Positions 4,751 to 19,030 of a stretch of DNA of 20,408 nucleotides are shown one piece after another. The DNA comes from a virus. Taxonomy: Duplodnaviria; Heunggongvirae; Uroviricota; Caudoviricetes. The stretch lies in IMG/VR virus record IMGVR_UViG_3300029181_000143, one strand, 5' to 3'. The notes under the pieces are model-generated. The model saw nothing but the letters and a program-made list of their open reading frames with translations. It did no database searches and had not been told where the DNA came from. Numbering within the stretch: the stretch's first letter is position 1; each line of letters begins with the position of its first letter. Made by a program: the position numbers and the translations under genes.

Positions 4751-4808
4751 AAAAAGGGCGGCAGAGCAGTCACGGAGTAAAACTGATACCGCCAAACGTC
4801 ACCAGAAA
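4751..4808 (-). ncRNA. dicF: DicF small regulatory RNA (53-nt processed form plus U-tail)
   Basis: The reverse complement reads TTTCTGGTGACGTTTGGCGGTATCAGTTTTACTCCGTGACTGCTCTGCCGCCCTTTTT, which is the recalled DicF sequence. It ends in a GC-rich hairpin (GGCGG...CCGCC) followed by a U-run. Confidence 0.85.
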
Positions 4809-6566: not shown

Positions 6567-6897
6567 ACAGGCTCGTGAGGCTCTGGATGCCTGGATATGT
6601 CGACCAGGAATGACACAGGAGCAGGCGACGATATTAATCACTGAAGCATTCTGGGCTTTGAAAGAGCGCCCGAACATCGATGTTCAGCGTGTCACAGATG
6701 AAGGTGGCGCGGTTGATCAGCGAGCGCTTGGTGTTAATCGAGTGAAGATATTCGAACGCTGGAAGGCTATCGACACCAGGGATAAGCGTGAAAAGTTCAC
6801 GGCGCTAGTGCCTGCGATTATGGAGGCTAAACATAATCTGTCGCGAGTGCCGGAAGAGCGAAGTTATGCAGCGCATACTGGCTTTCTATCAGGGTAA
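6550..6897 (+). CDS. Hypothetical protein in the cII position (YdaT/YdfX-like), 115 aa
   Basis: ORF whose start overlaps the dicC stop by 17 nt. Function is inferred from position only. Confidence 0.55.
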   Translation: MKITPEQAREALDAWICRPGMTQEQATILITEAFWALKERPNIDVQRVTDEGGAVDQRALGVNRVKIFERWKAIDTRDKREKFTALVPAIMEAKHNLSRVPEERSYAAHTGFLSG

Positions 6898-6915
6898 TTT
6901 TCAGGACGTGGCGCA

Positions 6916-7694: not shown

Positions 7695-7886
7695 ATGAGG
7701 AAGAACAAAGTGGCTGATTTTTGTTCAGCTAAATATAACATCAGTTTTGAAGAGCGGGATGAACTATTAATGGACTATGGTGAGTTACGCGGTGGAAGTG
7801 CTGCTGATGTCGAATCCTAGCGTGATGACTATGAAGCGGGAAAAACTCCGGTCGAAGCATATTGTGATGAGTGGGGCGATGAATGA
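7695..7886 (+). pseudogene. Small ORF with an in-frame amber codon at 7818..7820 (41 aa before the stop, 63 codons if read through)
   Basis: Hand translation MRKNKVADFCSAKYNISFEERDELLMDYGELRGGSAADVES*RDDYEAGKTPVEAYCDEWGDE. Its stop overlaps the next ATG in an ATGA arrangement. Confidence 0.3.
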
Positions 7887-8170
7887 GCGAGATTAATTAT
7901 CAGGAAGGGCATGAAACGGCGGGGCAAGCAAAACCAGTGACATGGCGATATCGCTACGTGAAAAAAGGCGTTACGGACTTTCAGGGGAAGTAGTGGTCTG
8001 GTGACTGGAAATATGTACCGAAAAAAGAGGATTGTAACGACAGGCCGAACTATCAAATTCAGGCCTTATTCACTGCCTCACCAGTCCCGGTTACATCAGA
8101 AGAATTGGTTAAAGCTGTGCACTTTTATGAACAACTAAAACGCGAAAATCCACCAACATCCGGCAACTAG
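7883..8170 (+). pseudogene. Small ORF with an in-frame amber codon at 7991..7993 (36 aa before the stop, 95 codons if read through)
   Basis: Hand translation MSEINYQEGHETAGQAKPVTWRYRYVKKGVTDFQGK*WSGDWKYVPKKEDCNDRPNYQIQALFTASPVPVTSEELVKAVHFYEQLKRENPPTSGN. It is ATGA-coupled to the upstream ORF. Confidence 0.35.
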
Positions 8171-8424
8171 ATTAATGGGTTAACTATGTCGGTTAAACGA
8201 CCAGCCAACTGAAAAAGCGGAAACCTGATTACAGGTTGCCAGATAAGGCAATGAGCTACCTGGCGCGGAACGGACTGATAAGTATGGGGAATGTTTTACG
8301 ATGAACCTTTAGACTAAAGAGTTTGTAACGCTATGTAAGTGATTTTTTCTGGTTTAGATATTTATATGTCCGGCCAAATTGAGGTGTGTTTAAATGTAAT
8401 TGCACATTGATTGTAGGAGGAATA

Positions 8425-8604
8425 ATGAAAAACGCATTGCAGTTTTTGTTTGTTGCGTTCTGGTTGTTCGCATCATGTATGCCCATCATCTTCACAGCAA
8501 GGTATATGGAAAAAGTTGATGTTTTGATATTAATATTTGGATATATAAATGCCCTTTTTTTAGGGGTGTTCATGGCGGTCATATGCATTGAATACTGGCG
8601 GTAA
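8425..8604 (+). CDS. Orphan small membrane protein (59 aa, two predicted transmembrane helices)
   Basis: Translation MKNALQFLFVAFWLFASCMPIIFTARYMEKVDVLILIFGYINALFLGVFMAVICIEYWR. AGGAGG Shine-Dalgarno 6 nt upstream of the ATG. The gene and its upstream region are markedly AT-rich compared with neighbours. Confidence 0.45.
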   Translation: MKNALQFLFVAFWLFASCMPIIFTARYMEKVDVLILIFGYINALFLGVFMAVICIEYWR

Positions 8605-8752
8605 ATACAGCGAACTCCATTGGTTTAGTTGGATATTTACTGTGCTGGACAAAAACGGTTTGCGGGGAAATCTTAGTTAAGTAGAATGACTGCGGGTGCT
8701 TGAGGCTATCTGCCTCGGGCACGAACACCAACGGCAGGTAGAGAAAAGCCCC

Positions 8753-10628
8753 AGTTAACATTACGCGTCCTGCAAGACGCTTAACATTAATCTGAGGCCG
8801 ATTTCATGCCAGACACATGTAGGTTAGCCTCTTACGTGCCGAAAGGCAAGGAGAAGCAGGCTATTGTTAACACCAAGCTGTAATGTCCCCTTTGAACCAT
8901 TCTAAAATGTCCCCAGACAATTCTCTGGGGGATTTTTCATGACCAAAGAAACTGTTACGATGAGTCATAAGGAACTCCACCGACTTCAGATTATTCAGGA
9001 GTCAATTAATCGACATATTACTCAGGAACAAGCTGCGGCACGCATTGGCATTTCTATTCGGCAGGTTAAACGTCTGGTGCAACGGTATAGAAATGAAGGG
9101 CCTTCTGGTCTGGTTTCCCACCGACGTGGAAAGCGTCCTAATAATTCCTTTTCTACTGAATTCAGAGCAACAGTAATTTCACTCCTCAAAGGCCGTTACG
9201 CTGATTTTGGACCTACGTTTGCGTGCGAAAAATTGCGCGAGATACACGGTTTATCTTTATCCGTTGAAACTCTCAGAAAGTGGATGATAGAAGAGGGGGG
9301 TATGGCGTGAACGCCGTCGTAAAATTGCCCGTATATATCAACGCCGCATGCGACGACCATCTTACGGTGAACTGATCCAGATTGATGGCTCACCTCATGA
9401 CTGGTTTGAAAATCGAGGCCCAGATGTACACTGATCGTTTTCATTGATGATGCCACCAGTGCGTTGATGGCGTTGCGTTTTGTGCCTGCTGAAACAACCC
9501 GGGCTTACATGGAAACCCTCCGGGGTTACCTTAATGATCATGGCGTACCGCTCGCTCTCTACTCTGATAGACACAGTATATTCAGGGTAAATAACCCAGA
9601 GCGGGAAGGTGAGCTGACCCAGTTCACTCGTGCGATAAAGACACTGGGCATCGAGCCAATCCATGCCAACAGCCCGCAGGCAAAAGGGCGGGTAGAGCGC
9701 GCCAATCAGACACTACAGGACAGGCTGGTCAAAGAAATGCGGCTTCAGAATATCAGTGATATTGAAACAGCAAATGCATGGTTGCCGACCTTTATTGAAG
9801 CCTATAACAACCGGTTCGCTACGTCGCCTCGTACTACTGATAATGCTCATCTTGATGTGCACCATTCTGAAGAGGAACTGGGTTATATCTTCAGCCTACA
9901 GGCGAAGCGCGTTCTGTCTAAAAATCTCACTTTCCAGTACAAAAGCAGTGCGTTTCAGGTACGCAGTGAGGGCCGGGGATATCGACTTAGGCATTCGGTT
10001 GTTACTGTATGCGAGAACTTTGACGGTGAAATTAACGTTCTGTATGACGGGAAAGCGCTGGGCTGGGAAAAGTATGTTGATGGCCCGGAGCCTATACCAC
10101 TGGATGATGAAAAGAGTGTCCATGAACGAGTGGATAATGCCCGTATTGATTTACGCTCAAAATACTATGTTAAACCTAAAGCTGACCATCCCTGGCTTAC
10201 GCGCCGAACGCAAAGTCATCAGCAAGTTAAGCCCCCGAAGTTACCTAAAAAGAAGCCTGATCCCGATAAAAAAGATTGAAACCAAGATCGATTCGGTTGA
10301 GTGCATATCCATTCATAGGGTAGATTCTTAAGTCGCGTTTCTGGTGTTCATTTTCGGGTGGTTTGTTACTTGTTTTACCGGGGATATGCCAGAAACGCGC
10401 TGAGTCAGTCTGGGCGGTGCGCGTAATGAGGCGTTATGGTAAATAGCCTATGCTAATGTCCGCTAAGAGCAAGAAGCGGAAGTTGGCAGTTTTGTGGACT
10501 GTCCCCACAAAAGTGACTACAGAAATAGTTGCAATTCATAATTGATCATGGGTTGTCAGTTAAACTCGTGGCGATTTAAATAGACTAATTGGGAGTGCGT
10601 CCATTACTTATATCTTGTAATGTTAACT
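8753..10628 (+). mobile_element. Insertion sequence carrying a DDE (rve-type) transposase; the ends are tentative
   Basis: The transposase gene occupies 8939..10279. The ends are placed at a 12-bp inverted match (agttaacattac at 8753..8764 and gtaatgttaact at 10617..10628). No target-site duplication was recognised. Confidence 0.45.
8939..10279 (+). pseudogene. IS transposase (N-terminal HTH plus DDE integrase core; ISNCY/IS481-like by eye) broken into three segments by two frameshifts
   Basis: N-terminal ORF 8939..9310 and C-terminal ORF 9464..10279 are in the same frame. The intervening 9300..9425 encodes conserved-looking sequence (SYGELIQIDGSPHDWFENRGP) in another frame. The shifts sit at a G6 run (9293..9300) and at GGCCCA (about 9417). 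DDE residues occur in QIDGS, FIDDATS and KGRVERAN. Confidence 0.7.
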
Positions 10629-10669
10629 ATCAGAAATGATACAAAGATAATATGTCTTTAAAGAAAAGG

Positions 10670-10701
10670 CTGATGGCGAAAAGTGGCCCGATGAGGGCCA
10701 C
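10670..10701 (-). terminator. Rho-independent terminator downstream of flxA
   Basis: Stem gtggccc/gggccac with loop gatga, followed on the minus strand by CUUUUCGCC. Confidence 0.5.
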
Positions 10702-10715
10702 AATACGGCTGTCAC

Positions 10716-11048
10716 TTAGACGTAAATATCAATGGTGCCAGCGGTATTTGTATCGTCTTTTTTCTCTTCTTTTTTATCAGGCTGAACTGTCGCGTCTTTA
10801 TTCTTTTTCTCTGCCTGCTGCCTTAACAACTGCTCCAGTTGAGCCCTGAGGCTTTCAATTTGCTTCTGTACCAATGCAGCCATTTCTTTTTTCTGCTGTG
10901 TCGTCATCCCCTCTTCCGATGAGATTTTCCCAAGCTTTTCAGTCAGCACCTGAATTTGTCTTGTGATTTTGGCTATTTCTGATGTTCCTTCCGGGGCGGA
11001 GTTGTTTGAAATAACGGTTGAGGTATTTCCCTGAATTGTGACAGACAT
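10716..11048 (-). CDS. flxA: FlxA (FliA-regulated prophage protein), 110 aa
   Basis: Translation MSVTIQGNTSTVISNNSAPEGTSEIAKITRQIQVLTEKLGKISSEEGMTTQQKKEMAALVQKQIESLRAQLEQ... matches recalled FlxA. AAGGAG Shine-Dalgarno upstream. Confidence 0.9.
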   Translation of the reverse strand: MSVTIQGNTSTVISNNSAPEGTSEIAKITRQIQVLTEKLGKISSEEGMTTQQKKEMAALVQKQIESLRAQLEQLLRQQAEKKNKDATVQPDKKEEKKDDTNTAGTIDIYV

Positions 11049-11071
11049 AGATTTCTCCTTTTAAAAAAGCA

Positions 11072-11098
11072 CTATCGGCATGCACAAAAAAATCTTTA
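11072..11098 (-). promoter_or_regulatory. Sigma-28 (FliA) promoter of flxA
   Basis: The minus strand reads TAAAGATT-N11-GCCGATAG, against the consensus TAAAGTTT-N11-GCCGATAA, about 25 nt upstream of the flxA ATG. Confidence 0.7.
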
Positions 11099-11250
11099 AT
11101 CGTATTTCTTGTGTCATTAATTGTTTGATGTTCAGATTGTTTTCCTCGCGGGCTGGCGCGCCTCAGAAAGTAAAGCTTGTTGACAGGGGTAAACGTTCGG
11201 CAATAATTTTCTGCCGCATGCGGGTGTTGCATAAAACGTGCTACGTTCCT

Positions 11251-11556
11251 TTATCGACAGGTCAGGTCACCGCTCACCCGCCGACGAGAAAGCAACACTG
11301 ACATGCTAAAGCAAAAAATAGATGAATAAGTTGAGTTGTGCATATGTAGCCTGACCGTCACAAAGTATATGGTGTCTGTACCAGTAAGATGATGGCCGGA
11401 CTCTTTAAAAACGAGCTGACCTGCACAATACAGGATGGACTTAGCAATGGCTGCTCCTGGCACAAAGCGGACAGTGATCACCGTTCTTACGACTACTTTC
11501 TGACTTCCTTCGTGACTTGCCCTAAGCATGTTGTAGTGCGATACTTGTAATGACAT
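11251..11556 (-). CDS. ydfV: YdfV-like hypothetical ORF (101 aa); coding status doubtful
   Basis: ORF between flxA and relB, as in K-12 Qin gene order. It has no recognisable motifs and an atypical composition. Confidence 0.3.
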   Translation of the reverse strand: MSLQVSHYNMLRASHEGSQKVVVRTVITVRFVPGAAIAKSILYCAGQLVFKESGHHLTGTDTIYFVTVRLHMHNSTYSSIFCFSMSVLLSRRRVSGDLTCR

Positions 11557-11569
11557 TTGTAATTACAAG
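11544..11569. promoter_or_regulatory. relBE operator/promoter (relO-like inverted and direct TTGTAAT repeats)
   Basis: CTTGTAATgacatttgtaATTACAAG palindrome immediately upstream of the relB Shine-Dalgarno and ATG. Confidence 0.6.
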
Positions 11570-11580
11570 AGGTGTAAGAC

Positions 11581-11820
11581 ATGGGTAGCATTAACCTGCG
11601 TATTGACGATGAACTTAAAGCGCGTTCTTACGCCGCGCTTGAAAAAATGGGTGTAACTCCTTCTGAAGCGCTTCGTCTCATGCTCGAGTATATCGCTGAC
11701 AATGAACGCTTGCCGTTCAAACAGACACTCCTGAGTGATGAAGATGCTGAACTTGTGGAGATAGTGAAAGAACGGCTTCGTAATCCTAAGCCAGTACGTG
11801 TGACGCTGGATGAACTCTGA
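11581..11820 (+). CDS. relB: RelB antitoxin (79 aa)
   Basis: Translation MGSINLRIDDELKARSYAALEKMGVTPSEALRLMLEYIADNERLPFKQTLLSDEDAELVEIVKERLRNPKPVRVTLDEL. Confidence 0.9.
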   Translation: MGSINLRIDDELKARSYAALEKMGVTPSEALRLMLEYIADNERLPFKQTLLSDEDAELVEIVKERLRNPKPVRVTLDEL

Positions 11821-12107
11821 TGGCGTATTTTCTGGATTTTGACGAGCGGGCACTAAAGGAATGGCGAAAGCTGGGCTCGACGGTACGTGAACAGTTGAAA
11901 AAGAAGCTGGTTGAAGTACTTGAGTCACCCCGGATTGAAGCAAACAAGCTCCGTGGTATGCCTGATTGTTACAAGATTAAGCTCCGGTCTTCAGGCTATC
12001 GCCTTGTATACCAGGTTATAGACGAGAAAGTTGTCGTTTTCGTGATTTCTGTTGGGAAAAGAGAACGCTCGGAAGTATATAGCGAGGCGGTCAAACGCAT
12101 TCTCTGA
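11820..12107 (+). CDS. relE: RelE mRNA-interferase toxin (95 aa)
   Basis: Translation MAYFLDFDERALKEWRKLGSTVREQLKKKLVEVLESPRIEANKLRGMPDCYKIKLRSSGYRLVYQVIDEKVVVFVISVGKRERSEVYSEAVKRIL. Its start is adjacent to the relB stop. Confidence 0.9.
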   Translation: MAYFLDFDERALKEWRKLGSTVREQLKKKLVEVLESPRIEANKLRGMPDCYKIKLRSSGYRLVYQVIDEKVVVFVISVGKRERSEVYSEAVKRIL

Positions 12108-12178
12108 ACCAAAGCATGACATCTCTGTTTCGCACCGAAGGTGACACTTCTGCTTTGCGTTGACAGGAGAAGCAGGCT

Positions 12179-15598: not shown

Positions 15599-15898
15599 AA
15601 AAATTCCTTAATACTGATAACTTGGCGCACTATACACACGTTCCTGAAGAAAGCTATAGTTTTTTGATGGGGTTGAAGATGGCTGGATGTCTAAAATAAA
15701 CATTGCTTCATATGTTCAACTATGCGTTAATGATTGCGTCGGTTTGAAGAACAGACGATATACGAAGTAGTTTACTAAAGCAGTTCTCATTTCAGGTGTT
15801 ATTCACTTATTCCTTCTTTGAGTCTCTCCAATTAAGTACGAAGTCGTTTCTGTTATGCAAACCATTTATGCCGAAAGGCTCAAGTTAAGGAATGTAGA

Positions 15899-16114
15899 AT
15901 GTCAAATAAAATGACTGGTTTAGTAAAATGGTTTAACGCTGATAAAGGTTTCGGCTTTATTTCTCCTGTTGATGGTAGTAAAGATGTGTTTGTGCATTTT
16001 TCTGCGATTCAGAATGATAATTATCGAACCTTATTTGAAGGTCAAAAGGTTACCTTCTCTATAGAGAGTGGTGCTAAAGGTCCTGCAGCAGCAAATGTCA
16101 TCATTACTGATTAA
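15899..16114 (+). CDS. cspB: Cold-shock protein CspB (71 aa)
   Basis: Translation [67 protein letters not shown] with RNP1 (KGFGFI) and RNP2 (VFVHF), preceded by a long AT-rich 5' leader. Confidence 0.9.
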
Positions 16115-16394
16115 AATTCATCGCTCGTCTGTATACGATAACGAAGAAGGCTGATGCCTGAGTAGAGATACGGACAGAGTAGTGAATATTGGATCTCTTT
16201 AATAAAAAGTAAGGAGGTCCAATACATGAAACAATGGCTAGCATATTTAGCAAAATCTTAATCAGGAAAAGTATGCTAACCATTGTGGTGAAGTGCAGGT
16301 TTGCTGCATGAATAGTTTTACAGCAGAAGCTAACTGCTGGCATGGCAAAACAAAGTGCGTAAGTGGATGACTCCCACAAAAAGCACCACAATCT

Positions 16395-18423: not shown

Positions 18424-18786
18424 GGTAATATTAAATCGGAACATTTACATCGCGGAATGTAAAATTTAAATAAAAAGGACTCTTCCATGAGCCAAAATTC
18501 CTGAAATCTTAAGGGTAAGATAAAAGGTCTTAATCAGAATGACACGTTATTATTAATAAATAAAGCTATTCTTTCATTGCTGTGTTTTTCTTTACAAAAG
18601 TAATCCTTGCTATGGGTGGTTAATCATGCGTTAATGGTGTTCTGGTTTGTTACAAATTTATCTGAAGCAGTCATTGTTATAATTTTATTATTTGTACCTC
18701 TTGAGATTTCCTTGTTGGTTTTTCTCTCTGATATTTTTTTTCGGACCATTCTGCCCAAGGGCTAATTTCTTCAAAAGGTAATAATT

Positions 18787-18999
18787 ATGTCTAACAAAAT
18801 GACTGGTTTAGTGAAATGGTTTAACCCTGAAAAAGGTTTTGGTTTCATCACGCCGAAAGATGGCAGCAAAGATGTGTTTGTCCATTTCTCAGCAATTCAG
18901 AGCAACGATTTCAAAACATTAACTGAGAATCAGGAAGTTGAATTTGGTATTGAGAACGGACCTAAAGGTCCTGCCGCTGTTCATGTAGTGGCGCTTTGA
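18787..18999 (+). CDS. cspI: Cold-shock protein CspI (70 aa)
   Basis: Translation [70 protein letters not shown], preceded by a long AT-rich leader. Confidence 0.9.
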
Positions 19000-19030
19000 G
19001 GTAGACAATATTACAAACCATATTCACTTT

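What the first reader, a model, noticed from the sequence alone, without database searches (positions are those of the whole stretch)
8330..8604. AT-rich orphan gene for a 59-aa two-helix membrane protein next to the IS
It has a near-perfect AGGAGG Shine-Dalgarno, two hydrophobic helices and a base composition well below its neighbours, which suggests a separately acquired moron. Small two-helix membrane proteins in prophage accessory regions are often superinfection-exclusion, abortive-infection or toxin-like factors. I do not recognise the sequence.
Basis: inference. Interest (0 to 1): 0.5.

Follow-up and report, generated by a model that had tools for sequence, protein, structure and literature searches.

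The report
Unannotated small prophage membrane protein gene
The 59-codon reading frame is a real gene under selection for a tiny two-helix membrane protein carried by defective E. coli prophages just upstream of a hok/sok toxin cassette; RefSeq leaves it unannotated, and what it does is still unknown.

Summary
An ATG at 8425 opens a 59-codon frame that ends at TAA 8602-8604. A perfect AGGAGG lies 4 nt upstream, and the frame sits in a 341-bp AT-rich block (35.5% GC; window 44.6%).

The window is a Qin-type lambdoid prophage of E. coli. The gene is real. A search of 1.84 billion protein representatives found one diverged sister branch: 59 aa, 42% identical, no gaps, E. coli only. Between the two branches pN is 0.33 and pS is 0.74 (Fisher p = 1.5e-5). 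In neutral simulations the frame survived in 0.24% of runs. It is intact in 153 of 154 type-A loci and 18 of 18 type-B loci.

Type A occurs in 1566 and type B in 1045 of 5426 complete E. coli genomes. RefSeq annotated neither in any sampled genome. No Pfam, PHROGs, NCBIfam, PADLOC or PDB relative exists.

The gene fills a variable cargo slot between the last nin-type gene and a hok/sok cassette. It is not directly next to the IS. In the window that IS cuts hok at its start codon. Type B also lies 5' of a hok remnant.

No own promoter, terminator or antisense RNA was found. The product is a predicted helical hairpin with conserved membrane-embedded polar residues. A lipobox-like motif gives a rival reading. 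Function is inferred only. It is a new family of a familiar kind.

The parts
8306..8646 (.). AT-rich cargo block (35.5% GC) that carries the gene. It is bounded on the left by the stop codon of the upstream nin-type pseudogene (8302-8304) and on the right by the start of hok-cassette homology (8647).
   Evidence: The hok homology of Stx phages begins at window 8647-8648. A related prophage (L221) keeps window 8143-8304 and 8652-8864 but has 1.3 kb of other genes between them. The type B locus aligns from about 8306 to about 8630.
8307..8319 (.). 13-bp palindrome CTTTAG-a-CTAAAG at the left edge of the block. Its role is unknown.
   Evidence: The homologous position in type B reads CTTCAG-t-CTGAAG, so two changes keep the dyad. 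Only two lineages are available, so this is a lead and not a finding.
8415..8420 (+). Shine-Dalgarno sequence AGGAGG, 4 nt upstream of the ATG.
   Evidence: Read directly from the sequence. Some alleles have AGGGGG (position 8418 A/G). Type B has a weaker AGGGA.
8425..8604 (+). Coding sequence of the 59-aa membrane protein (type A), stop codon included.
   Evidence: A gap-free 59-aa sister branch has 42% identity. pN is 0.33 and pS 0.74, with Fisher p = 1.5e-5. The frame is intact in 153/154 and 18/18 loci.
8434..8493 (+). Hydrophobic segment 1 (residues 4-23). It contains the invariant W13, S17, C18, P20, I21 and I22. Residues 8-18 also fit a lipobox rule.
   Evidence: Hydropathy is, invariant columns, the AlphaFold2 helix 2-24, and the PS00013 rule match in both branches.
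8494..8520 (+). Short connecting loop (residues 24-32). It is variable between branches and acidic in type B.
   Evidence: Alignment is, charges.
8521..8589 (+). Hydrophobic segment 2 (residues 33-55), with invariant L36, F38, G39, N42, A43 and L44 and near-invariant G47 and F49. The conserved C-terminal motif I-E-x-W-R follows at 8587-8601.
8555..8561 (+). T7 run inside codons 44-46. Rare database variants are frameshifted here.
   Evidence: Protein variants P0019, P0022, P0024 and P0025 change frame at this point. None of the 154 loci examined carries such a shift except L087, a low-identity assembly.
8647..8865 (+). Context: the 5' part of a hok/sok/mok cassette (promoter, hok mRNA leader, Sok region). 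Its hok reading frame is cut off at the ATG.
   Evidence: Rfam RF01794 hits 8694-8865 at 98.8 bits. Alignment with intact cassettes shows the break after GGCTAT.
8866..8896 (+). Context: left terminal inverted repeat of the IS1202-family (ISEsa1-like) element that interrupts hok.
7883..8304 (+). Context: the upstream nin-type gene, here a frameshifted pseudogene. Its stop codon marks the left border of the cargo slot.
   Evidence: RefSeq annotation of the same sequence in IAI1. An intact 152-aa form is found in L221.

Best explanation
**Shown.** Bases 8425-8604 are a real protein-coding gene that has evolved under purifying selection. It founds a two-branch family found only in Escherichia and Shigella prophages. 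It is carried on a 341-bp AT-rich block. [quoted passage not shown]

**Inferred from sequence.** The product is a 59-aa helical hairpin in the inner membrane. The N and C termini are probably cytoplasmic. The conserved residues lie inside the bilayer (W13, S17-C18-x-P20, G39-x-x-N42, G47) and in a C-terminal I-E-x-W-R motif. This pattern fits a protein that works by packing its helices against itself or against another membrane protein.

**Inferred from context.** The gene points the same way as the early-right operon. It has a strong ribosome-binding site but no recognisable promoter, terminator or antisense RNA of its own. It is therefore probably made by read-through when the prophage early operon is de-repressed, and not as a constitutive lysogen gene.

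**Guess.** Its role is most likely that of a phage accessory factor acting on the cell membrane. That could mean perturbing the membrane or modulating a host membrane protein, with exclusion of other phages as one possible outcome.
For: **Gene reality.**
- An all-against-all HMMER search returned a 59-aa homologue (P0036/P0041) aligned 1-59 to 1-59 without gaps, at 42% identity.
- At DNA level the two frames are 59% identical. Differences by codon position are 25, 17 and 31. pS is 0.74 and pN 0.33, and the corrected dN/dS is about 0.14. Fisher p = 1.5e-5.
- Neutral simulations of equal divergence kept start, stop and open frame in 0.24% of runs. None reached the observed 25 identical residues.
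- Flanking DNA aligns with gaps. The ORF aligns with none.
- The opposite-strand 85-aa frame has 2 stops in the sister branch.
- The frame is intact in 153/154 type A and 18/18 type B loci.

**Membrane hairpin.**
- Hydropathy.
- AlphaFold2 helices 2-24 and 30-58.
- Type B has R2-K3 at the N terminus and an acidic loop.

**Cargo slot.**

**Linkage to hok in both branches.**
- The window has the hok leader at 8647-8865.
- Type B has a hok C-terminal fragment 55 nt after its stop codon. Its locus is a collinear prophage skeleton.

**Transcription signals and distribution.**
- No promoter or terminator was found in the window.
- Distribution: 1566 and 1045 of 5426 genomes.
Against: - Within each branch nearly all polymorphisms change the amino acid: A16V, V31I, I37M, Y40H, M53I/T and Y57C, against one synonymous change. 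Recent selection is therefore not demonstrated.
- Rare frameshifted or chimeric forms exist in the protein database.
- dS is at saturation, so the dN/dS value is rough.
- There is no expression evidence of any kind. No paper contains the peptide.
- RefSeq does not call the gene.
- The consensus promoter scan is crude, and AT-rich DNA can hide weak promoters. In the type B remnant no phage operon is left upstream, so read-through cannot explain expression there.
- The functional statement rests on analogy only.
Confidence: 0.6

Rival explanations
1. The protein is the precursor of a small lipoprotein. Residues 1-17 would be a signal peptide cut by signal peptidase II before the invariant Cys18. 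This would leave a 42-aa lipid-modified protein held in the inner membrane by one C-terminal helix.
For: - Both branches satisfy the PROSITE PS00013 lipobox rule (LFVAFWLFASC and LCISIWIVISC). Cys is at position 18 and a K or R lies in the first 7 residues.
- S17 and C18 are invariant.
- All variants seen keep them.
Against: - Shuffling the residues of segment 1 meets the rule in 6-7% of cases, so the match is weak evidence.
- The residues after the Cys (MPIIF, VPIIL) are hydrophobic and extend the stretch to 20 residues. That looks like a plain membrane helix.
- Position -3 is F or V, not the usual L (my knowledge of lipobox statistics).
- No dedicated predictor could be run.
Confidence: 0.18
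2. It is a membrane-damaging toxin of the type I kind, like its neighbour Hok. It would be kept silent by an unrecognised antisense RNA or by mRNA folding.
For: - It is small and very hydrophobic.
- It lies beside hok in both branches.
- A 12-nt complementarity links the 5' leader (8360-8371) to codons 39-42 (8539-8550).
Against: - No profile similarity to Hok: hhalign probability is 0.2%.
- No Rfam hit lies in the block.
- There is no excess RNA structure on either strand (z = -1.3 and 0.0).
- No antisense promoter was found in the window.
- The SD is not obviously sequestered.
- The frame stays intact in the type B remnant, where no regulator is evident.
Confidence: 0.12
3. It works together with the hok/sok cassette, for example by tuning Hok action or hok expression. 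That would explain why it travels with the cassette.
For: The gene lies immediately 5' of hok sequences in both branches, although they are only 42% identical in protein. No terminator separates it from the hok promoter.
Against: - hok cassettes of the same subtype occur without it in 933W and Sakai Sp11.
- It persists intact where hok is destroyed, both in the window and in type B.
- Shared ancestry of the whole region explains the linkage equally well, because the type B locus is a collinear skeleton.
Confidence: 0.08
4. The frame is a non-functional leftover or a chance ORF in T-rich DNA, and its hydrophobicity is a by-product of composition.
For: - T-rich DNA gives hydrophobic translations. 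Stop-free random frames of this composition have a mean GRAVY of 0.57.
- Polymorphism within each branch is almost all non-synonymous.
- RefSeq does not annotate the gene.
- The surrounding prophage genes are pseudogenes.
Against: - Between-branch comparison gives pN 0.33 against pS 0.74, with p = 1.5e-5.
- The neutral model keeps the frame in 0.24% of runs.
- Start and stop positions are identical and there are no indels.
- A frame this long and this hydrophobic arises in 0.05% of shuffles.
- A perfect SD is present.
Confidence: 0.05
5. The real gene is the 85-aa frame on the opposite strand (8331-8588). Some phage submitters annotate this frame, once as 'hornerin'.
For: It is annotated in PhiR42_1 and in vB_EcoS-640R1 / 813R8.
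Against: - The frame is broken by 2 stops in the sister branch.
- It has no family match.
- Its sequence is low-complexity.
- The codon-position pattern fits the + strand frame.
Confidence: 0.01
6. It is a class II holin or pinholin.
For: It has two membrane helices, is small, and probably has an N-in/C-in topology.
Against: - Only four residues follow helix 2, so there is no charged cytoplasmic tail.
- The gene lies about 8 kb from the lysis cassette (essD, ydfR, rrrQ, rzpQ).
- There is no conserved dual start.
- No PHROGs or Pfam holin family matches.
Confidence: 0.02

Closest known systems
Prophage 'morons' and other accessory cargo genes of lambdoid phages (concept of Hendrix and colleagues; example: the HK97 gp15 inner-membrane exclusion protein) - from my knowledge
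   Same: It is a single small gene of atypical, AT-rich composition. It sits in a slot that holds different cargo, or none, in related prophages. The product is predicted to be an inner-membrane protein.
   Different: No promoter or terminator of its own was detected. It lies inside the early-right (nin-type) operon in the same orientation. It has no sequence relation to any described moron product.
Hok/Gef family type I toxins (Pfam PF01848) with Sok antisense RNA
   Same: It is a small hydrophobic prophage-borne protein and is physically adjacent to a hok cassette in both branches. [quoted passage not shown]
   Different: It has two hydrophobic segments where Hok has one. There is no profile similarity and no Pfam hit. 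No antisense RNA, mok-like leader frame or fold-back structure was found.
Small membrane superinfection-exclusion proteins (T4 Imm, P22 SieA, HK97 gp15) - from my knowledge
   Same: Phage-encoded, small, with predicted membrane helices.
   Different: There is no homology. Expression in the lysogen, which exclusion needs, is not supported by a promoter. No defence model matches. No phenotype is known.
Class II holins / pinholins (e.g. phage 21 S21) - from my knowledge
   Same: Two helices, under 100 aa, probably N-in/C-in.
   Different: There is no charged C-terminal tail, the gene is not in the lysis cassette, there is no dual start, and no family matches.
Small phage lipoproteins (Cor, Llp, Rz1) - from my knowledge
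   Same: A lipobox-like motif with an invariant Cys18 after a basic N terminus and a hydrophobic stretch.
   Different: A second membrane helix follows. The residues after the Cys are hydrophobic. There is no homology, and lipid modification has not been tested.

Membership tests
Protein-coding gene under purifying selection | The reading frame, start and stop are retained in diverged homologues, with fewer non-synonymous than synonymous changes per site. | tested here: met
   A 59-aa gap-free sister branch exists. pN is 0.33 and pS 0.74, Fisher p = 1.5e-5. Neutral simulations retain the frame in 0.24% of runs.
Protein-coding gene under purifying selection | Evidence of transcription and translation. 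| not testable with these tools
   No expression data were available. The peptide strings are in no searchable paper.
Two-helix (hairpin) inner-membrane protein | Two hydrophobic stretches of about 20 residues separated by a short polar loop. | tested here: met
   The Kyte-Doolittle 19-residue window peaks at 2.1 and 2.4. AlphaFold2 gives helices 2-24 and 30-58 at pLDDT 71.5. The pattern is conserved in type B.
Two-helix (hairpin) inner-membrane protein | Experimentally defined topology and membrane location. | not testable with these tools
   Only a positive-inside argument is available: type B has R2-K3 at the N terminus and an acidic loop.
Moron (autonomous accessory gene in a prophage) | Base composition differs from the neighbouring phage genes. 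| tested here: met
   35.5% GC, against 42.5% on the left and 50% on the right.
Moron (autonomous accessory gene in a prophage) | The gene is inserted between genes that are adjacent, or separated by other cargo, in related phages. | tested here: met
   L221 has the same upstream gene and hok cassette with 1.3 kb of different genes between them. hok abuts other genes directly in 933W and Sp11. No genome was found with an empty slot.
Moron (autonomous accessory gene in a prophage) | Own promoter and own terminator. | tested here: not met
   The consensus scan of 8100-8950 found no promoter and no terminator next to the gene. The scan is crude, so weak signals are not excluded.
Type I toxin-antitoxin toxin | A small hydrophobic protein of under about 60 aa. 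| tested here: met
   59 aa, GRAVY 1.31.
Type I toxin-antitoxin toxin | A cognate antisense or divergent small RNA with complementarity to the toxin mRNA. | tested here: not met
   There is no Rfam hit in 8306-8646, no antisense promoter and no excess structure on either strand.
Type I toxin-antitoxin toxin | Toxicity on expression. | not testable with these tools
   This needs an experiment.
Hok/Gef family (PF01848) | Sequence or profile similarity to Hok proteins. | tested here: not met
   Pfam gives no hit at E up to 10. hhalign against a Hok alignment gives probability 0.2%.
Class II holin / pinholin | A charged cytoplasmic C-terminal tail, and a position in the lysis cassette next to the endolysin. 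| tested here: not met
   The C terminus is E-Y-W-R only. The lysis genes lie about 8 kb away.
Bacterial lipoprotein precursor | A lipobox before an invariant Cys, after a basic n-region and a hydrophobic h-region. | tested here: inconclusive
   The PS00013 rule is met in both branches. It is also met by 6-7% of shuffles of the same segment. The residues after the Cys are hydrophobic.
Known anti-phage defence systems (PADLOC models) | A match to a defence-system protein model. | tested here: not met
   There were no hits at E up to 10 for either branch.

The most novel reading that the evidence does not exclude
The protein is a domesticated prophage factor with a real cellular role. In B2-phylogroup E. 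coli it is the only reading frame still intact in a prophage skeleton at the ttcA/Rac attachment site. The integrase, a replication-region gene and hok are all reduced to fragments there. Both branches sit 5' of hok. The most novel reading is that it is a new kind of small membrane partner of the Hok toxin pathway, or an independent membrane-level phage-exclusion factor, that the host keeps for its own benefit.
Probability: 0.12. Interest if true: 0.6.

Novelty: new member of a known kind. Interest (0 to 1): 0.35.

Why it matters
Between them, the two branches occur in about 2600 of 5426 complete E. coli genomes (29% and 19%; co-occurrence in one genome was not checked), including IAI1, LF82 and ST131 lineages. 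RefSeq called neither branch in any genome sampled, and K-12 lacks the segment altogether. The small-protein work done in K-12 could therefore never have seen it.

It is a clean example of a conserved small membrane protein that falls through annotation. It is also a ready candidate for tests of prophage-encoded membrane factors and of what travels with hok/sok cassettes. If it proved to have no phenotype it would simply be one more uncharacterised phage accessory gene.

Tried and rejected
**Family and structure searches that found nothing.**
- Pfam, PHROGs, NCBIfam and PADLOC scans found no family. The only entry was a sub-threshold TIGR03647 match for type B (14.5 bits against a cut-off of 26). 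I treat it as a compositional match.
- A PDB sequence profile search gave nothing at E up to 10.
- Foldseek of the AlphaFold2 model against viral structures gave only generic hairpins, with best E = 0.65.
- A profile search of the 5.8-billion-protein set and a metagenome scan found no third branch.
- A genome scan of 185,579 species representatives found only E. coli and Shigella.

**Ideas tested and dropped.**
- Descent from a hok duplication: rejected by hhalign.
- A structured RNA or sRNA in place of a gene: Rfam found nothing in the block, and folding z-scores were -1.3 and 0.0.
- The opposite-strand 85-aa frame: rejected.
- The 72-aa GTG start and a holin-like dual start: rejected. The extension is not conserved and the GAGG lies only 1 nt from the GTG.

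**Searches that came back empty.**
- I searched E. coli genomes for a precise empty-site joint between the upstream gene and hok. None appeared in the sampled hits.
- Peptide-string searches and a ribosome-profiling search of the paper library gave nothing usable.

Full report
**Where the window comes from**

The window is a Qin-type defective lambdoid prophage of Escherichia coli. A 701-base query around the finding matches E. coli chromosomes at 99.7-100% identity. The RefSeq annotation of the same DNA in IAI1 and in strain mip270_04 lists these genes in order:
- integrase, exonuclease, ydfD, dicB, ydfC/B/A, dicA and dicC;
- a YdaT-family gene, a replication-type gene and a DUF977 gene;
- three pseudogenes;
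- a gap with no annotation;
- an IS1202-like (ISEsa1 family) element;
- ydfW, flxA, ydfV, relB, relE, hokD, rem, ydfU, the Q-type antiterminator, cspF, cspB and the lysis genes.

Rfam supports this picture with DicF at 4756-4807 and two cspA-type leaders. The finding lies in the unannotated gap.

**Checking the observation**

The sequence shows AGGAGG at 8415-8420, ATG at 8425 and TAA at 8602-8604. This gives a 59-aa product, MKNALQFLFVAFWLFASCMPIIFTARYMEKVDVLILIFGYINALFLGVFMAVICIEYWR.
- There are two hydrophobic stretches, at residues 4-23 and 33-55. GRAVY is 1.31.
- AlphaFold2, run on a ten-sequence alignment, gives helices 2-24 and 30-58 at mean pLDDT 71.5.
- The ORF is 36.7% GC and the surrounding block 8306-8646 is 35.5%. 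The left flank is 42.5%, the right flank 50% and the whole window 44.6%.

T-rich DNA tends to translate into hydrophobic peptides, so I tested chance. In 20000 shuffles of the block, an ATG frame of at least 59 codons on that strand arose in 2.7%. One that was also as hydrophobic arose in 0.05%.

Two details need correcting. The gene is not directly beside the IS, and it is not a strict orphan. Both points are covered below.

**Is it a gene?**

Close copies are common but say little. The DNA is present at 95% identity or more in 1566 of 5426 complete E. coli genomes. It is in three phage records and in many viral and metagenome contigs.

Across 154 loci the frame is intact in 153. The exception, L087, is a low-identity assembly with single-base deletions in homopolymers. 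Nearly all polymorphisms within this set change the amino acid: A16V, V31I, I37M, Y40H, M53I/T and Y57C, against one synonymous change. The close copies therefore cannot show selection.

The decisive result came from the exhaustive HMMER search of 1.84 billion representatives. It returned P0036, also 59 aa, aligned end to end without gaps at 42% identity. I call its cluster type B. Type B occurs in 1045 of 5426 genomes.

Comparing the two coding sequences:
- They are 59% identical.
- Differences by codon position are 25, 17 and 31.
- pS is 0.74 (saturated) and pN is 0.33.
- The corrected dN/dS is about 0.14, and Fisher p = 1.5e-5.

I imposed 73 random substitutions on the window ORF in neutral simulations. 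Start, stop and open frame survived in 0.24% of runs. No run reached the observed 25 identical residues.

Other points agree:
- The flanks align only with gaps. The ORF aligns with none.
- The 85-aa opposite-strand frame, which some phage submitters annotate, has two stops in type B.
- The 72-aa GTG-start form is not conserved. Type B has a stop 6 codons upstream of its ATG.

I conclude that this is a real gene that has been under purifying selection for most of its history.

**How far the family reaches**

These searches found nothing beyond the two branches:
- a profile of both branches against 5.8 billion proteins;
- a metagenome scan;
- a scan of one genome from each of 185,579 species.

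All sources are Escherichia or Shigella. GenBank submitters sometimes call it 'hypothetical protein'. RefSeq annotates nothing there in any of 40 and 30 sampled genomes. K-12 lacks the whole segment, because dicC-ydfX abuts ydfW. This explains why K-12 small-protein studies never met it.

**Anatomy of the locus**

Homology of other hok cassettes (Stx phages, 933W, Sakai Sp11) to the window begins at 8647-8648. In those phages hok follows a different gene directly, with no homologue of this ORF.

On the left, the upstream nin-type gene ends at 8302-8304. In viral contig L221 the same upstream gene (intact, 152 aa) and the same hok cassette are separated by 1.3 kb. That stretch encodes an antirepressor-like protein and a reverse-strand ORF.

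So 8306-8646 is one alternative filling of a variable cargo slot. This meets two of the three moron criteria, composition and insertion polymorphism. The third criterion, an own promoter and terminator, is not met by the consensus scans.

The gene is co-oriented with the early-right operon in the intact phage vB_EcoS-640R1. The order there is cro-like, cII-like, O-like, small genes, this ORF, mok/hok, ydfU, rusA and Q. The simplest inference is expression by read-through when that operon is de-repressed.

**The true neighbour**

Bases 8647-8865 are the promoter and leader of a hok/sok/mok cassette (Rfam RF01794 at 98.8 bits). Alignment with intact cassettes shows that the hok frame is cut exactly at its ATG by the IS end at 8866.

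**The type B locus**

Type B lies between ttcA and uspF, the Rac attachment region, in B2-phylogroup strains such as LF82, ST131 and ATCC 11775. It is a collinear prophage skeleton with this order:
- an integrase fragment;
- a fragment matching window 6830-6901;
- the intact 59-codon gene;
- 55 nt later, a fragment 80% identical to the C-terminal half of hok.

The gene is therefore 5' of hok in both branches, and it is the only intact frame in that skeleton. Shared ancestry of the region explains the linkage without any functional coupling. hok cassettes exist without the gene, and the gene persists where hok is dead. I therefore rate a functional link as a minority reading.

**What the protein looks like**

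Invariant positions between the branches are M1, L5, L8, W13, S17, C18, P20, I21, I22, T24, L36, F38, G39, N42, A43, L44, E56, W58 and R59. G47, F49 and I55 are nearly invariant. The loop is variable.

Type B has R2-K3 at the N terminus and an acidic loop. By the positive-inside rule (established knowledge) this points to N-in, loop-out, C-in. Conserved Ser, Cys, Pro, Gly and Asn residues inside membrane helices are typical of helix-helix packing surfaces. This is inference, not a test.

A rival reading is that residues 8-18 form a lipobox. Both branches meet the PS00013 rule, but so do 6-7% of shuffles of the same segment. The residues after Cys18 are also hydrophobic.

**Comparison with known families**

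- There is no Pfam, PHROGs, NCBIfam, PADLOC or PDB relative.
- Foldseek finds only generic hairpins.
- A suspected resemblance to the Hok membrane helix was tested and rejected, with hhalign probability 0.2%.
- It is not a class II holin. It has no charged tail, is not in the lysis cassette and has no dual start.
- It lacks the antisense RNA that defines type I toxins.
- It works like the broad class of small prophage-encoded membrane accessory proteins, but it belongs to no named family.

**Verdict**

This is a new, narrowly distributed family of a familiar kind. It is a useful annotation correction and a reasonable experimental candidate, but not a surprise to a specialist. I score interest at 0.35.

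Noticed in passing
window 8647-8865, with the break at 8865/8866: This is the promoter and leader of a hok/sok/mok cassette (Rfam sok hit 8694-8865, 98.8 bits). The hok reading frame is cut off exactly at its ATG by the end of an IS. The Rfam hit is on the hok-mRNA strand. In 933W the annotated sokW RNA lies on the opposite strand, which would place Sok at about 8744-8814 (-).
   Followed up: yes
window 8866-12163: A 3.3-kb unit is bounded by imperfect inverted repeats. The ends read TGTTAACACCAAGC... and ...GCGTTGACA, about 22 of 30 matching, and have the TGT/ACA termini described for the IS1202 family (PMC10132070). The unit is flanked by a 15-bp direct repeat, GGAGAAGCAGGCTAT, at 8851-8865 and 12164-12178. 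It contains the decayed ISEsa1-like transposase, flxA, ydfV, relB and relE. It sits between the hok leader and the hokD reading frame (ATG 12179). This would explain why hokD (relF) lacks its mok/sok leader and follows relBE. PMC10132070 reports that no target duplication was detected for ISEsa1 itself.
   Followed up: partly
window 10130-10279: The K-12 'protein YdfW' (49 aa) is the C-terminal end of the IS1202-family transposase frame 9464-10279. The translations are identical.
   Followed up: yes
window 8307-8319; L088 5877-5889: A 13-bp palindrome, CTTTAGaCTAAAG, lies directly after the stop codon of the upstream gene. The homologous site in type B reads CTTCAGtCTGAAG, so two changes preserve the dyad. 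It could be a protein-binding or recombination site at the edge of the cargo block. Only two lineages are available.
   Followed up: no
window 8533-8544 (codons 37 and 40): Type A alleles come as I37/Y40 (127 loci) or M37/H40 (26 loci). No intermediates were seen. M37/H40 is also the type B state, while the codon between them keeps the type A spelling. Either the pair is coupled on one helix face or the changes are parallel.
   Followed up: no
L088 4990-6300 (the ttcA-uspF region of B2-phylogroup E. coli): This is a heavily deleted prophage skeleton, collinear with the window. It runs integrase fragment, DUF977-region fragment, the intact 59-codon gene, then a hok C-terminal fragment. In some strains it lies next to remnants of a sit-type metal transporter.
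   Followed up: partly
window 8555-8561: There is a T7 run inside the gene. Several database protein variants (55 aa, ending ...FFRGVHGGHVH) are frameshifted here. They could be sequencing errors or real slippage alleles.
   Followed up: no
L221 3018-4352: In a related prophage the same slot between the upstream gene and hok carries a 226-aa antirepressor-like ORF (+) and a 95-aa ORF (-). This marks the site as a cargo hot spot. Neither ORF was scanned against any family library, so 'antirepressor-like' is my reading of the translated sequence and not a tool result.
   Followed up: partly
window 4756-4807 (-), 15738-16130 (+), 18641-19026 (+): The DicF sRNA and two cspA-type thermoregulator leaders are present, as expected for Qin.
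   Followed up: no
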